From Eledone cirrhosa (lineage: Eukaryota), in the NCBI GenBank assembly GCA_964016885.1, contig OZ024742.1, positions 209,622,001 to 209,686,000 of the forward strand: a stretch of 64,000 nucleotides of DNA, given 5' to 3'. A model generated the notes under the pieces. That model ran no database searches. It was not told the origin of the DNA and saw only the letters and a program-made list of their open reading frames with translations. The position numbers and the translations under genes were made by a program. The stretch's first letter is position 1, and every line of letters begins with the position of its first letter. This document shows, in pieces, positions 5,001 through 35,577 of the stretch.

Positions 5001-5117
5001 ACATATATATGAACACACATATATGCACATATATACATATATATCTATATATATATATATATATATATAATGAAATGACAGGAGGCAGGATTTGTGTAAA
5101 TCCTTGAAAGGTTTATT

Positions 5118-5175
5118 ATACTATGATCATTTCAATGACCGGGTTCCGTATGAATCCCGTGATATCATCAGGTAT
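5118..5175 (-). ncRNA. Type I hammerhead ribozyme (family A, minus arm)
   Basis: Reverse complement of 5271-5328. Confidence 0.75.
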
Positions 5176-5270
5176 TCGAAATATAATACGTGAATGTAAT
5201 AGATAAAATCCATGAGGCTGAAAATCAGCCCCATGGATTTTATCTATTACATTCACGTATTATATTTCGA

Positions 5271-5328
5271 ATACCTGATGATATCACGGGATTCATACGG
5301 AACCCGGTCATTGAAATGATCATAGTAT
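5271..5328 (+). ncRNA. Type I hammerhead ribozyme (family A)
   Basis: atac CTGATGA [stem II ..cgggattc atacg gaacccg..] GAAA TGATCA TA gtat. Stem I is atac/gtat; stem III is the palindrome TGATCA. Confidence 0.75.
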
Positions 5329-5523
5329 AATAAACCTTTCAAGGATTTACACAAATCCAGCCTCCTGTCATTTAATTATAATATTTAACTCCGTAATAGC
5401 ACCACCAACTACAAAAACAAAGACGGTTGAACTGCTTTACGTTGAGTAGTCTCTATATTACTACATTACGATTGACCATACGGAATAGACCAGCTCTATA
5501 CAGTGGTGAACCTCAAACCTGAA

Positions 5524-6380
5524 TATATATATATATGTATATGTGTATGTATATATGTATATATATATATATATGTGTATGTATATATATATATGTATAT
5601 ATATATATATATATATATGTGTATGTATATATATATATATATAATGTGTGTATGTATATATATATGTATATATATATATATATATGTATATATATATATA
5701 CATGTGTGTATGTATATATATATGTATATATATATATATATATATATATATATATATATATATATATATATATATATATGCGTGTATGTATATATATATG
5801 TATAAATATATATATATATATGTGTGTGTATATATATATGTATAAATATATATATATGTGTATGTATGTATATATATATGTATAAATATATATATATATG
5901 TGTGTGTATGTATATATATATGTATAAATATATATATATATATGTGTATGTATATATATATGTATATATATATATGTATATATATATATGTGTATGGATA
6001 TATATATGTATATATATATATATATACATATATATATACATATATATATATATATACATATATATATACATATAAATATATATATATACATATATATATA
6101 TACATATATATACATATATATATATATACATATATATATATACATATATATATACATATATATACATACATATATATATATATATATATATATATATATA
6201 TATATATATATATACACATATATATATACATACACACATATATATATATATATATATACACACACACAGATATATATATATATATATATATACATATATA
6301 TGTATATATGTGCATATATGTGTGTTCATATATATGTCAGGTCATATATATCTATATATCTATATATATATATATATATA
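5524..6380. repeat. Degenerate (TA)n array, G-interrupted on the left and C-interrupted on the right
   Basis: tatgta-type interruptions dominate to ~6010 and tacata-type interruptions after ~6025. Confidence 0.95.
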
Positions 6381-6530
6381 CATTATTTACGCACCGAGAG
6401 AGAGAAAAAACGGGGAGGATAGGTGATACATAAAGTTATTTGTCAAGTTTTTTGCGAGCAATTAACCTTGACGTGGATTTAACCCAAAAAACTCTTTCCG
6501 AGCAATGTAAGGAACACTTTTGATTGTTTA

Positions 6531-6571
6531 TGCCCTTGAGAAGCCCAACTGGGCGAAACGTACGTAGGTGC
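6531..6571 (+). ncRNA. Type I hammerhead ribozyme variant (U3-A8 core) in a short pLTR-like fragment (~6385-6627)
   Basis: gccc TTGAGAA gccc-aact-gggc GAAA CGTACG TA ggtgc. The fragment is flanked by (TA)n. Confidence 0.6.
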
Positions 6572-6730
6572 TGTTTTAAATAAACATGTTTTAATGGTCT
6601 GTTCTCCGATTTCTTACTTTCCCACGTATATATATATATATATATATATATATATATAAATATATTTATATATGATAAACACATATATATCTATGACTTT
6701 ATATATATATATATATATATATATATATAT

Positions 6731-31793: not shown

Positions 31794-32571
31794 GCCTAAT
31801 TTGCATATCGAGTGAGTTCAGTCGGCCAGGCGCACCGAAAACGATAAGTTGGAATAGAATGAAACGAAATTTCATTTCTCACTCTTAGTACGGCACTTAC
31901 TTAAATGTAAGTATGTATGTATACGTACATACATATATGTATACAGACGTACAGTAGCATGCATATATATATATATATGTATATATATATTCATGCTACT
32001 GTACGTATGTATACTTATATGTATGTACGTATACATACATACTTAAATTTAAGTAAGTGCCGTACTAAGAGTGAGAAATGAAATTTCGTTTCATTCTATT
32101 CCAACTTATCGTTTTCGGTGCGCCTGGCCGACTGAACTCACTCGATATGCAAATTAGGCTTCTCAGCCGTTAATTTTCATAAGGAATGTATATACTTTCG
32201 AACGTTCAACCATCTGGCAGAAGGGTATACGGTGCTGACGATAGCTAACAAGCTTGAAACTAGTACATCGTTCCTGTGTCAGTGTTGAACAAAAAAGTGA
32301 CGTCGTTGCCTTAACACCGTACGGCATAAATCAGGCTGTCAGTTTGTTTACAAACGGACAAAGCGAGCGTTATAATAAACGTCCGCTAAACTGATACGTA
32401 CATATATATATGTGTACCTGTATGTGTATATATATATATATATATATATATATATGCATGCTACTGTACGTCTGTATACATATATGTATGTACGTATACA
32501 TACATACTTACATTTAAGTAAGTGCCGTACTAAGAGTGAGAAATGAAATTTCGTTTCATTCTATTCCAACT
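31794..32571. mobile_element. HHR family C, copy 2: inverted arm plus a terminally redundant 1.25-mer (retrozyme-like)
   Basis: Minus arm 31794-31961 mirrors 31993-32160. On the plus strand catgctactgtacg...ttccaactt occurs at 31993-32108 and again at 32457-32571 (period 464), with one HHR between. Confidence 0.85.
32230..32270 (+). ncRNA. Minimal type I hammerhead ribozyme (family C)
   Basis: cggtg CTGACGA t agct-aaca-agct t GAAA CTAG TA catcg; palindromic ACTAGT. Confidence 0.8.
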
Positions 32572-32703
32572 TATATATATATATATATATATATATATGT
32601 GTGTGTGTGTGTGTGTGTGTGTGTGTGTGTGTGTGTGTGTGTGTGTGTGTGTGTGTGTGTGTGTGTGTGTGTGTGTGTGTGTGTGTGTGTGTGTGTGTGT
32701 GTG

Positions 32704-33073
32704 AATAAATATACACGTGTGAATGATTGTGTATAGAAGATTATATTAATAAAAGTAATTCCAACTGTGTCTGATTAACTCGTTTTATTTACAATCCTTT
32801 AAAATTATAATGATATTATAATGAAATAGTATGGTAGAATATTAAATGTTAATTGAACAAGTACTTTCATTCTTTCGCAATCTTCAGGTTCATATTCAGT
32901 GGTGACAGTCAAGTTTGCAATTTTCGACTTGACTGTCACCACTGAATATGAAAGTACTTGTTCAATTAACATTTAATATTCTACCATACTATTTCATTAT
33001 AATATCATTATAATGTTAAAGGATTGTAAATAAAACGAGTTAATCAGACAGTTGGAATTACTTTTATTAATAT
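32704..33073. mobile_element. HHR fold-back element, family D
   Basis: Inverted arms 32743-32914 and 32927-33073 with a 12-nt loop. Probable left tail 32704-32742. Flanked by microsatellites. Confidence 0.75.
32855..32891 (-). ncRNA. Minimal type I hammerhead ribozyme (family D)
   Basis: Minus strand reads gaac CTGAAGA ttgcgaaagaat GAAA GTAC TT gttc. Stem II is weak. Confidence 0.6.
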
Positions 33074-33807
33074 ATATATATATATTCAGGTTTGAGGTTC
33101 ACCACTGTATAGAGCTGGTCTATTCCGTATGGTCAATCGTAATGCAATAATATAGAGAGTACTCCACGTAAAGCAGTTCAACCGTCTTTGTTTTTGTAGT
33201 TGGTGGTGCTATTACGGAGTTAAATATTATAATGAAATGACAGGAGGCTGGATTTGTGTAAATCCTTGAAAGGTTTATTATACTATGATCATTTCAATGA
33301 CCGGGTTCCGTATGAATCCGGTGATATCATCAGGTATTCGAAATATAATACGTGAATGTAATAGGTAAAATCCATGGGGCTGAAAATAGAGACCCGAGGG
33401 CGACCGCTATTCTGTTCCTTCAACCTCAGCCGGTCGCCCTGGAGTGACGTGGCTAAATTTTATAGTATGCTACTACCGGTCAGATGAACGAAAACAGAAA
33501 GAGATGGGAGCATAGGTTAACGTCGATCCCATGACACAAGGTAAAAGAAAGAAAGAAAGGAAGGAGAAGAAGGGGGAAGAAAGAAGAAGAGAAGTCAGGG
33601 TTAATGTCAGCTAAAAGAGGAAGGTAACTACTACTGGTCAGATATAGGCAAGCAAGAGGGGGAAGGAAGATAAGTCTGTGGGAGGGGGAGAGGAGAGAAG
33701 GAAGGGAAGAGAGAAGTAGAAAAGTAAGGGTTGATGGCTACAAGAAGGAAGATAGAAAGGAAGAGGAAGAAAGGTCGATATTAATGGCTTGACTGTGGTC
33801 TGACATT

Positions 33808-33893
33808 AATTGTTTCTACTTTAGGCACAAGGCCAGCAATTACCCAGTGCATTACTGGTACTTTATTTTATCGACCCCGTAAGGATGAAAGGC
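33808..33893 (-). mobile_element. 5'-truncated SINE in the hairpin apex
   Basis: Matches the SINE 3' part at 40158-40243. Flanked by gacattaat at 33802 and 33894. Confidence 0.8.
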
Positions 33894-34344
33894 GACATTA
33901 ATATCGACCTTTCTTCCTCTTCCTTTCTATCTTCCTTCTTGTAGCCATCAACCCTTACTTTTCTACTTCTCTCTTCCCTTCCTTCTCTCCTCTCCCCCTC
34001 CCGCAGACTTATCTTCCTTCCCCCTCTTGCTTGCCTATATCTGACCAGTAGTAGTTACCTTCCTTTTTTAGCTGACATTAACCCTGACTTCTCTTCTTCT
34101 TTCTTCCCCCTTCTTCTCCTTCCTTTCTTTCTTTCTTTTACCTTGTGTCATGGGATCGACGTTAACCTATGCTCCCATCTCTTTCTGTTTTCGTTCATCT
34201 GACCGGTAGTAGCATACTATAAAATTTAGCCACGTCACTCCAGGGCGACCGGCTGAGGTTGAAGGAACAGAATAGCGGTCGCCCTCGGGTCTCGATTTTC
34301 AGCCCCATGGATTTTACCTATTACATTCACGTATTATATTTCGA

Positions 34345-34402
34345 ATACCTGATGATATCACCGGATTCATACGGAACCCGGTCATTGAAATGATCATAGT
34401 AT
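34345..34402 (+). ncRNA. Type I hammerhead ribozyme (family A); mirror copy at 33280-33337(-)
   Basis: atac CTGATGA ... GAAA TGATCA TA gtat. Confidence 0.75.
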
Positions 34403-35577
34403 AATAAACCTTTCAAGGATTTACACAAATCCAGCCTCCTGTCATTTCATTATAATATATATATATATATATATATATATATATATATATACACACATAA
34501 TTTGCGTCGGTATCGTAATCATCAGCAGCAACATAATCATCAATGATAAAGGACAATGTGTGTGTGTGCATGTTTGTGTGTGGGTGTGTGTGTTTGAGTG
34601 TCTGTGTTTGAGTGTCTGTGTGTCTTTATACATGTGTGTGTGTGTGTGATGGTTATGGTGATGACAATGATTATGATGACCACGGCAATGATATCCCGCT
34701 GAGGTTCACTTTGCCTTTTATGCTTACAGGGTCGATAAAATAAAGTACCAGTAATACACTGGATTAGTTGCTGGCCTTGTGTCAAAAGTAGAAACAATTA
34801 TATGATCGTCATGATTATGTAATGACTCCGGTCCAAAACAGAAAAAGGAAAACTGCACAGACAGGAGAATGTCTTCTAGAGACATGAGGCAGGTCAGCTG
34901 AGGCGGAATTACATCTTAAATGCCAGTGAAGTGAATTCATATTTGAATCCCATTGACGAGCAATCGGAACTAAGTGGCGGTTCCGGAGTACTTTAAATCT
35001 GTCATTCCTCTCATTAACAGACTCCATGACAATGACAATAACATCAACAAAATGTATAACACCTATAAGGAAAATATTAGTAACCATTATAGCATTAGTA
35101 ACCATTATAGTATGTGACCAGTTCTTTGTAAAAATAAAGTAGAAATAAATGCAAACCCAGTAGTAAGACATGCACCTGTCTGGGAGAGAGGCCATTTTGA
35201 AGCTAGCCGTAAAATCTACCAAGATTGGAGGTGTAATATATTGATTTCTTTATTAGCCACAAGGGCGCAACAAGAAAGGGGACAATACAAAGACATGCCG
35301 GGGATTTTACATACAGTCGTGTAAAAAATATAAAAACAAACATATTATCAAGTATTTACAAGTCATAAATAATATCTTGCAGGACTTGGAGCTTTATACA
35401 TACCTGCTTTTCAACTTTTCTCTTATTTCATTTTTTATTTTGTCTACTTTTCTCTTTCATTTATTCTCTCTCCCCCCTATCTCTCTCTCTCTCTCTCTCT
35501 CTCTCTCTCTCTCTCTCTCTCTCTCTCTCTCTCCCTTAGAAGCCACATTTTCTCCATTAAAGATTTCTATTATGATG

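What the first reader, a model, noticed from the sequence alone, without database searches (positions are those of the whole stretch)
5066..34455. The tail-less arm stops at the same internal nucleotide in independent insertions
Seen: the family A short arm ends at ..tcatttcattata|(TA)n both at 5066 (left) and 34455 (right). The family B short arm ends at ..tcctat|(TA)n at 21943, 23206 and 63906. The PLE family ends at gtataacaatat|(TA)n at both 30095 and 22572. The opposite arm continues for a further 45-145 nt of tail. The inner (5') breakpoints vary freely. Inference: each RNA has two defined reverse-transcription start sites, one terminal and one internal at a TA-rich microhomology, used by the two target ends. 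This would be a programmed twin-priming mechanism rather than random inversion.
Basis: partly seen in the sequence, partly recalled or inferred. Interest (0 to 1): 0.78.

Follow-up and report, generated by a model that had tools for sequence, protein, structure and literature searches.

The report
Penelope elements pair two start sites
These head-to-head repeats are copies of Penelope-like jumping genes sitting in TA microsatellites, whose two outer ends fall at two fixed positions inside the element, one of each in 158 of 161 insertions examined, likely because the two cut ends of the target each prime a separate reverse transcription from a different start site: a known signature, here counted well enough to test how it arises.

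Summary
Observation confirmed at all seven coordinates, and in a genome sample (183 places, 1.1 Mb). All three families are Penelope-like elements (PLEs) with hammerhead-bearing pLTRs in (TA)n: P Neptune-type, B Hydra-type, A non-autonomous. Outer ends fall at two sites, S and L (tail 145, 79, 60 nt). Of 161 same-family inverted pairs, 158 are S+L, 2 L+L, 1 S+other, none S+S. In other families met by chance, 73 stems are one-sided and none is shown symmetric. Apex junctions differ (153 strings in 158), so there is no palindromic master. Either arm can be the longer (35 vs 40 of 150), which argues against fold-back.

The one-sided tail and two internal RT starts are published (PMC8557442, PMC11167929), and this scan met the architecture before in other genomes. 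Not found in my paper searches: the near-obligate pairing, the evidence against self-priming, a GAGTRCY tail motif, and two-family chimeras.

The parts
5066..5226 (-). Family A insertion 1, S arm (tail-less, antisense), outer end on (TA)n
5225..5522 (+). Family A insertion 1, L arm; about 5378-5522 is the 145-nt tail, which holds GAGTRCY-type motif region
5270..5329 (+). Minimal type-I hammerhead motif of family A (AATAC-CTGATGA-stem II-GAAA-tgatca-TA^GTATA); mirrored in the S arm
   Evidence: descriptor search on a family A copy; position read; Rfam gathering scan found nothing
21943..22147 (.). Family B (Hydra-type PLE) mini insertion: S arm on the left, L arm on the right, 13-nt templated insert at the apex
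22495..22572 (.). Mini insertion of a P-related subfamily: L arm on the left, very short S arm on the right
23206..23310 (.). Family B insertion whose arms do not overlap: S arm 61 nt; the L arm holds only the last part of the tail
25701..27722 (-). Family P (Neptune-type PLE) L arm: ORF 3' part, pLTR and 60-nt tail
27723..30095 (+). Family P S arm, 408 nt longer at its 5' side than the L arm; RT region 27794-29023, GIY-YIG region 29008-29640. Both arms share a private 1-nt deletion
29892..29936 (+). Minimal hammerhead motif of family P (AGTCA-CTGAAGA-stem II-GAAA-gaac-TA^TGACT), followed by an internal (TA)5-6 run that is never used as an end
33086..33790 (-). Family A insertion 2, L arm
33791..33893 (.). 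About 107-nt apex insert matching another dispersed repeat (also at 40153-40251 and 56940-57041)
33888..34455 (+). Family A insertion 2, S arm
63906..64000 (-). Start of a 2.7-kb family B-type S arm; its L arm (about 380 nt) lies beyond the window, at L261:3242-3618

Best explanation
These are head-to-head Penelope-like retroelement insertions whose two outer ends lie at two fixed internal sites (S and L), one per side, likely because the element's protein nicks both strands of a (TA)n tract and each freed end primes its own reverse transcription, one from S and one from L, probably most often on the same RNA. The two cDNAs stop independently, at RNA hairpins, at the RNA's 5' end or (for the L cDNA) at the complex already sitting at S. 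Their 3' ends are then joined by short microhomology or templated inserts and filled in. The 60-145-nt tail is the stretch between the two start sites. It is likely the docking site of a protein dimer that places one RT on each side, so a second end cannot reuse the site taken by the first. The 3-4-nt TA match at each site sets the register but does not choose the site.

Shown here: the two end sites, their pairing, read-through past L, independent arm lengths, shared source of the arms, junction types. Shown elsewhere in vitro for one PLE: both strands nicked and extended, two internal starts. Inferred: obligate S/L assignment per event, one RNA, the dimer, host end joining.
For: Pairing: A 52/52, B 79/80, P 27/29 S+L; P about 2e-43 against a 50% null, and 117/120 without tail-query loci. 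Other families met by chance: 73 one-sided stems; the 4 symmetric-looking ones are splits at an internal TA run. Single arms whose 5' end sits on (TA)n use both sites (19 S, 22 L, 2 other), so pairing does not come from one site being rare.

Independence of the arms: in 150 clean pairs the S arm reaches further 5' in 35 (24 by more than 100 nt), the L arm in 40, and 8 pairs do not overlap at all. Read-through pLTR tandems occur on S arms (L185, L198, L199) as well as L arms.

Shared template: mismatch at family-variable columns within vs between insertions is 0.038 vs 0.238 (A), 0.083 vs 0.175 (B) and 0.072 vs 0.366 (P). Both arms of the window P copy share a 1-nt deletion absent from 8 other ORF copies. 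In A, L-arm inner ends pile up within 30 nt of S (7 against 1 and 0 in the flanking bins, p 0.003). Near-equal arm lengths exceed shuffles (A 11 vs 4.9, B 51 vs 35, P 13 vs 5.6).

Junctions: 80 overlap, 16 blunt, 54 short insert.

Literature: PAc cleaves and extends both strands, starts RT at two internal sites that bound the tail, and is predicted to be a dimer (PMC11167929).
Against: No biochemistry here; end sites in DNA cannot themselves prove they are RT starts. In vitro, PAc start sites did not differ between top and bottom strand, and pairing per molecule was not measured. Two P pairs are L+L (L219; L082, where both arms run on into a shared 130-nt flank). About ten two-family chimeras show that two different RNAs, or later deletions, can give the same shape, and 3 of the 7 with both ends classed are S+S or L+L. 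Arm concordance could also come from two RNAs of one source locus or from gene conversion between arms. The pile-up at S is seen only in A (n=7); B cannot be separated from its hot zone and P shows none. Equal lengths beyond the hot zones are not significant after cleaning (p 0.08-0.27). The sample is the best-scoring 25-40 hits per search plus neighbours, so it is biased to young copies. 121 terminal arms stayed unpaired, 70 of them with a 5' end on other DNA that I resolved only in part.
Confidence: 0.72

Rival explanations
1. Dual priming on two RNAs: each target end is served by its own RNA (same source locus or, rarely, another family), and an asymmetric dimer still forces one to start at S and the other at L. 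This is the same rule with two templates.
For: Arms overlap in 142 of 150 pairs, which two RNAs explain without strand displacement. About ten direct head-to-head joins of two families exist, for example P-S + A-S in L181 and P-L + B-L in L209. The tail motif GAGTRCT is near-palindromic and could pair two RNAs (inference). Dual priming was proposed for L1 (PMC2837659).
Against: Arms share source variants and a private deletion. L arms pile up at S in family A. Chimeras do not keep the S+L rule, which suggests they are a different route.
Confidence: 0.14
2. Self-priming or fold-back with nuclease resolution (the published idea): one cDNA, or an antisense RNA, folds back and copies itself into a hairpin, and the GIY-YIG nuclease cuts it at staggered AT-rich sites S and L before integration.
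For: Proposed from palindromic junctions (PMC3846280) and 'EN-mediated resolution' (PMC8557442). Half of the pairs (75 of 150) have arms within 20 nt of each other, and some apexes sit on natural hairpins. Both sites are AT-rich.
Against: A copied arm cannot reach further 5' than its template, yet the tail-less arm is longer in 35 of 150, and the tailed arm cannot be copied from the tail-less one. 8 pairs share no sequence. Fold-back running out to the (TA)n primer would give L+L or S+S. In vitro, genomic ends matched RT starts.
Confidence: 0.06
3. Both arms start at L, and the tail is later lost from one arm by deletion or trimming between the (TA)n flank and the AT-rich S site.
For: S carries 3-4 nt (A: up to 8 nt, imperfect) of TA match, and A-S ends are spread over 11 bases.
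Against: It must happen on exactly one arm in 158 of 161 and never on both. A much better (TA)5-6 match 156 nt upstream in P is used by 0 of 56 copies. Single arms end at S as often as at L. The youngest, mismatch-free pairs are already S+L.
Confidence: 0.04
4. Copies descend from pre-formed S-L palindromic masters that transpose as a unit, with later deletions at the apex.
For: Five junction strings recur twice; palindrome centres are deletion-prone (established knowledge).
Against: 153 distinct junction strings in 158. Mirror-image junctions occur at one P hairpin (L067/L068 vs L075/L077). Arms range from 30 nt to more than a full unit on either side. One repeat (L051/L055) is a local duplication 4.3 kb apart, and one (L203/L213) is an alignment break.
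Confidence: 0.03

Closest known systems
PAc (Poseidon, Anolis carolinensis) internal initiation of reverse transcription, Frangieh et al. 2024, PMC11167929 (read parts 1-3 of 4: abstract, main text, methods; supplementary figure 2 gave labels only; the GenBank file could not be read)
   Same: Two RT start sites internal to the RNA, downstream of a hammerhead in the pLTR/ORF start, bounding the genomic tail; AT-rich target; both strands nicked and extended.
   Different: There, tails are 30-40 nt, start sites are not homologous to the cut DNA, and pairing per insertion was not examined. Here tails are 60-145 nt (33-257 in other families), both sites have a 3-4-nt TA match, and S and L are paired in 158 of 161 insertions across Neptune-type, Hydra-type and non-autonomous families.
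Canonical insertion unit of endonuclease-bearing PLEs (Craig et al. 2021, PMC8557442, passages and section 11; Arkhipova et al. 2013, PMC3846280, passages and Discussion)
   Same: [quoted passage not shown]
   Different: Those papers call the tail optional and ascribe it to nuclease resolution, and the inversion to antisense self-priming. The counts here make one-sidedness near-obligate and argue against self-priming.
L1 twin priming and the proposed dual priming (as described in Meyer et al. 2010, PMC2837659, passages; the original twin-priming paper was not held)
   Same: Both target ends prime cDNA, giving two inverted fragments joined at their inner ends with microhomology.
   Different: L1 starts at the poly(A) end plus a variable internal site, and its fragments do not overlap (internal deletion). 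Here both starts are fixed and internal, and the arms overlap in 142 of 150.
[quoted passage not shown]
   Same: Type-I motif with short stem I, long stem II, small palindromic stem III, in pLTRs, also as opposite-strand pairs 100-700 bp apart; U3-A8 core variant.
   Different: The predicted cut sites lie 52 (A), 17 (B) and 160 (P) nt upstream of S, so the ribozyme makes neither S nor L. B has a full stem III, and the copy tested has a C3/A8 core.

Membership tests
Endonuclease-bearing Penelope-like elements (C-terminal EN) | Single ORF with RT followed by GIY-YIG endonuclease | tested here: met
   P: stop-free 1281-aa frame in L242. Window pieces hit RVT_1 (E 1.5e-4, below the cut-off) and GIY-YIG (23 bits, cut-off 22.6); the whole 1270-aa protein returned no Pfam family. 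B: broken ORF with RT and GIY-YIG motifs read by eye. A: no frame of 120 aa or more (non-autonomous).
Endonuclease-bearing Penelope-like elements (C-terminal EN) | Partial tandems forming pLTRs, with an adjacent inverted 5'-truncated copy | tested here: met
   Read-through tandems: A 7, B 3, P 3; units about 2.8, 3.5 and 4.3 kb; 161 inverted pairs
Endonuclease-bearing Penelope-like elements (C-terminal EN) | [quoted passage not shown] | tested here: met
   158 of 161; longer (60-145 nt) than the 30-40 nt in print
Endonuclease-bearing Penelope-like elements (C-terminal EN) | Hammerhead motif in the pLTR | tested here: met
   Descriptor match in A, B (one of three copies scanned, L118) and P; Rfam gathering scan of the window gave 0; cleavage not tested
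Endonuclease-bearing Penelope-like elements (C-terminal EN) | RT phylogeny within PLEs | not tested
   No tree built; no named PLE reference proteins were fetched
Hydra clade (family B) | RWK-type and DKT motifs, CxCX5C linker, CxxC and CxH, no CCHH, (TA)n target | tested here: met
   RWR, DKT, CNCPDGSIC (L201), CNLC, CKH, one Cys between GIY and YIG (against section 11 of PMC8557442)
Hydra clade (family B) | Generally shorter than 3 kb | tested here: not met
   Unit 3.5 kb, with about 1.3 kb of non-coding 3' region; a soft feature in the paper
Neptune-type PLE (family P) | CX2-5CxxC linker upstream of GIY-YIG, and the CCHH motif | tested here: met
   CIDKKCITC; two Cys between VVY and YIG plus downstream His (features). 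Neptune versus Nematis not separated.
PAc-type internal initiation | Both end sites internal to the transcript | tested here: met
   Read-through past L in all three families; P sites 22 and 82 nt into the ORF; B sites upstream of the first ATG, which is 92 nt past L. RNA itself not seen.
PAc-type internal initiation | Start site not homologous to the cut DNA | tested here: inconclusive
   3-4-nt TA match at both sites, but a better match is unused (0 of 56) and some ends at S or L abut non-TA DNA
PAc-type internal initiation | RT start at these sites on both nicked strands in vitro | not testable with these tools
   Needs purified protein
L1 twin priming | First primer at the RNA 3' end (poly(A)) | tested here: not met
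   L is internal
L1 twin priming | Variable internal second site; non-overlapping fragments with an internal deletion | tested here: not met
   Fixed S; overlap in 142 of 150
L1 twin priming | Target-site duplication | not testable with these tools
   Hidden by (TA)n on both sides

The most novel reading that the evidence does not exclude
Head-to-head PLE insertions are made by an obligately asymmetric twin TPRT. A protein dimer docked on the tail (in Hydra-type families through a conserved GAGURCY word) primes one nicked strand at S and the other at L on one RNA, copies the same region twice without RNase H, and leaves the two cDNAs to host end joining. Now and then the second end is served by another family's RNP, which gives two-family chimeras. 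This would be the general origin of inverted pLTRs and tails across PLE clades and would replace antisense self-priming.
Probability: 0.5. Interest if true: 0.65.

Novelty: new member of a known kind. Interest (0 to 1): 0.44.

Why it matters
The one-sided tail and the inverted pLTR of Penelope-like elements have been described for years, and Craig et al. (2021) list their origin as open. The 2024 in vitro work explains the tail as two RT starts but not why one insertion carries one of each. The counts here (158 of 161; either arm longer; shared source; 0 of 56 at a better TA match) separate the published models and give a prediction that the existing PAc assay can test on single molecules. If true, it is a retrotransposon that integrates by two programmed, non-equivalent priming events, which matters for PLE biology, for annotating these very abundant repeats (S/L ends mark true boundaries; 'MITE-like' palindromes are not DNA transposons) and for anyone adapting PLE proteins for gene insertion. 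The surprise is moderate, because most pieces are in print.

Tried and rejected
Rfam scan of the window at gathering thresholds: 0 matches; the hammerheads rest on my own descriptor (a first regex found only P because it stopped at the first match). Pfam on the whole P protein: 0 families; a retry on two parts failed on a frame slip and was not repeated. A second P search with the AT-rich pLTR end found nothing, so the P sample stays at 25 candidates plus neighbours.

Folding S-30..L+30 gave no shared structure across A, B and P; an ACTC...GAGT stem seen by eye is only 4 bp and was not accepted.

My first pairing count (158 of 160) missed a diverged P L+L pair; it was corrected. Three candidate pairs were set aside for low coverage (two A S+L, one unrelated B S + B S with host DNA between). 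Eight of 158 pairs were dropped before the arm-length counts (7 with apex gaps over 60 nt, 1 local duplicate). The claim that equal arm lengths beyond the hot zones show one RNA did not survive that cleaning.

The idea that the hammerhead cut makes S or L was rejected (17-160 nt away). The idea that inner ends sit at the edge of the hammerhead core, as earlier notes found elsewhere, does not fit here: B stops inside stem II, A and P 45-120 nt upstream of the core.

PMC522041 (Pyatkov 2004) and PMC311219 were not held; Evgen'ev and Arkhipova 2005 and Arkhipova 2006 were not seen, and any model figures there or in the unread PAc supplements may anticipate the pairing.

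
Full report
OBSERVATION. The seven junctions are in the sequence as described. Each belongs to a head-to-head inverted insertion flanked by (TA)n on both sides, with both 3' ends pointing outward. One arm stops at an inner site (S); the other runs 145 nt (A), 79 nt (B) or 60 nt (P) further, to a second site (L) (P re-anchored). The 22572 copy is a P-related subfamily, and the 63906 copy has its L arm beyond the window. 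'Short arm' is a misnomer: at 30095 the tail-less arm is 408 nt longer at its 5' side, and at 63906 about 2.3 kb longer.

IDENTITY. P encodes RT followed by GIY-YIG (weak Pfam hits). An intact 1281-aa frame lies in L242, with a CX4CxxC linker and CCHH residues, i.e. Neptune-type; the whole protein gave no Pfam family. B is a 3.5-kb unit with a broken ORF showing RWR, DKT, CxCX5C, CxxC, CxH and no CCHH, matching the Hydra description. A is a 2.8-kb non-coding unit with internal duplications. All three carry a minimal type-I hammerhead motif upstream of S. No tree was built.

GENOME SAMPLE. Six searches (two with tail-containing queries, four core-only; a seventh found nothing) and 81 fetched stretches gave 183 non-redundant places, 1.10 Mb (the 81st stretch, came later). 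This is the top 25-40 hits per search plus whatever lay beside them, not the whole genome. Outer ends fall at S or L in 148 of 158 A arms, 215 of 226 B arms and 78 of 93 P arms; 13 of the others are tandem read-throughs and 9 are the related P subfamily. Most peaks are one base wide; A-S spreads over 11 bases.

PAIRING. Same-family inverted pairs: A 52 of 52 S+L, B 79 of 80 (one S+other), P 27 of 29 (two L+L); no S+S. Without loci found by a tail query the count is 117 of 120. An independent word-based count gave 88 S+L, 1 L+L and 2 two-family islands. One L+L (L082) extends into the same 130-nt flank on both arms and looks like a different event; the other (L219) is real. Clustering all 932 TA-bounded islands showed the same shape in other families never searched for: 73 stems with a 33-257-nt overhang, and 4 symmetric-looking ones that are splits at an internal TA run. 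Of those 4, two resolve to S+L and two are unclear. 121 terminal arms had no partner; 43 of them have their 5' end on (TA)n and use S (19) and L (22) about equally, 70 abut other DNA and 8 run off the fetched stretch.

NOT A MASTER, NOT FOLD-BACK. Junction strings are distinct in 51 of 52, 76 of 79 and 26 of 27 pairs, and mirror-image junctions occur at one P hairpin. In 150 clean pairs (8 dropped) the S arm reaches further 5' in 35, the L arm in 40, they are within 20 nt in 75, and 8 share no sequence. An arm copied from the other cannot exceed it, and the tail cannot be copied from an arm that lacks it. So both arms were templated separately, which is what priming from both target 3' ends predicts. 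Junctions show overlap (80), blunt joins (16) or short, often templated inserts (54), as in microhomology-type end joining (inference).

BOTH SITES ARE INTERNAL. Tandem copies read through L into the next unit in all three families, on S arms as well as L arms. In P the sites lie 22 and 82 nt after the ATG. Both sites carry a 3-4-nt TA match, but 0 of 56 P copies end at the (TA)5-6 run 156 nt upstream (the 5 flagged by the script visibly continue), and several S or L ends abut non-TA DNA. The predicted hammerhead cuts are 17-160 nt from S. The sites therefore seem placed by RNA or protein. A GAGTRCY word lies 47-83 nt before L in 6 of 12 L-end clusters, including A and B but not P, in none of 14 S-end clusters (one member of one cluster aside), and in 0.85% of shuffles; 11 of all 75 end clusters carry it, and those tails do not otherwise align. 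Its role is untested.

ONE RNA OR TWO. Arms of one insertion share source variants (mismatch at variable columns 0.04-0.08 within, 0.18-0.37 between). The window's P arms are 99.6% alike, 97.3% to L242, and share a 1-nt deletion seen in none of 8 other ORF copies. In A, seven L arms stop within 30 nt of S against 1 and 0 in the neighbouring bins, as if blocked by the complex at S; P shows no such peak. This favours one RNA but cannot exclude two RNAs of one locus or gene conversion. Against it, 9 of 21 two-family islands are direct head-to-head joins, plus two more. In L181 a P arm ending at P-S is fused, through a short templated duplication, to an A arm ending at A-S. Of the 7 with both ends classed, 3 break the S+L rule. 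They may be two RNPs at one break or deletions between neighbours; I could not tell.

INNER ENDS. They are not free: they cluster at 45-70 nt from S in B (inside hammerhead stem II), 150-225 in A and 240-280 in P (upstream of the core), with a long spread up to more than one unit.

KNOWN WORK. [quoted passage not shown] PMC11167929 showed in vitro that a Poseidon protein nicks and extends both strands and starts at two internal sites bounding the tail; it predicted a dimer, saw no strand difference and did not address pairing or inversion. L1 twin priming differs in its terminal first primer, variable second site and non-overlapping arms. Five searches found no paper that states per-insertion pairing or a twin-priming model for PLEs. 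The library lacks most subscription papers, including Pyatkov 2004, and I could not see the figures. Earlier notes of this scan report the same architecture in other genomes.

VERDICT. The feature is real and is the known Penelope tail, in new Neptune-type, Hydra-type and non-autonomous families. The added value is the strictness of the pairing and the evidence against self-priming, which make a single-molecule test possible. Interest 0.44.

Noticed in passing
L181:4406-7351; L209:7079-8277; L210:1498-2040; L078:1385-2062; L060:1394-1792; L099:219-457; L233:4430-4572: Head-to-head joins of arms from two different PLE families between (TA)n flanks, each arm ending at its own family's S or L site; the S+L rule does not hold in them.
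   Followed up: partly
tails of A (window about 5443-5449), B (22095-22101) and nine other end clusters: A GAGTRCY word recurs 30-83 nt before L in otherwise unalignable tails; absent from P and not seen by eye in the PAc template printed in PMC11167929. Candidate protein-binding or RNA-pairing site.
   Followed up: partly
L242:2252-6094: Intact 1281-aa P frame with a long Asn/Thr/His-rich insert in the N-terminal part, recalling the N-rich inserts of rotifer Penelope families (PMC3846280).
   Followed up: no
window 7500-8050, 31793-32570, 36004-36251 (family D); 32706-33075 (family C); 23346-23530; 22611-23135; 6627-7370: Further repeat families in (TA)n, most with the same one-sided tail or hammerhead-like words; nearly every TA tract in the window holds one.
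   Followed up: partly
window 33791-33893: The apex of the second A insertion holds about 107 nt of another dispersed repeat (SINE-like by my recall), perhaps captured as filler when the two arms were joined; the same repeat abuts A-S ends in L032 and L048.
   Followed up: no
L082:1045-1960: Symmetric palindrome in which both P arms run through L, a short TA run and the same 130 nt of another repeat; looks like a read-through template or a DNA-level inversion.
   Followed up: partly
window 4391-5003 and 30537-31154, 31188-31382: Another dispersed repeat of about 600 nt at the edge of TA tracts, in opposite orientations, with defined ends and no inverted stem.
   Followed up: no
window 50489-54369 (+) and 18912-20167 (+): Broken frames that read like Helitron Rep/helicase proteins (recalled motifs, no family scan).
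   Followed up: no
window 17530-18606 (+): Broken frames that read like a hAT/GTF2IRD2-type transposase (recalled, no scan).
   Followed up: no
window 57987-60689 (+), 46219-48248 (+), 61592-63563 (+), 44638-45515 (-), 10807-11142 (-), 42015-42582 (+): Fragments of several LINE-type reverse transcriptases (recalled motifs, no scan).
   Followed up: no
window 23530-25700: 2.2-kb degenerate (TA)n tract directly beside the P L end; tracts beside these insertions are often very long.
   Followed up: no
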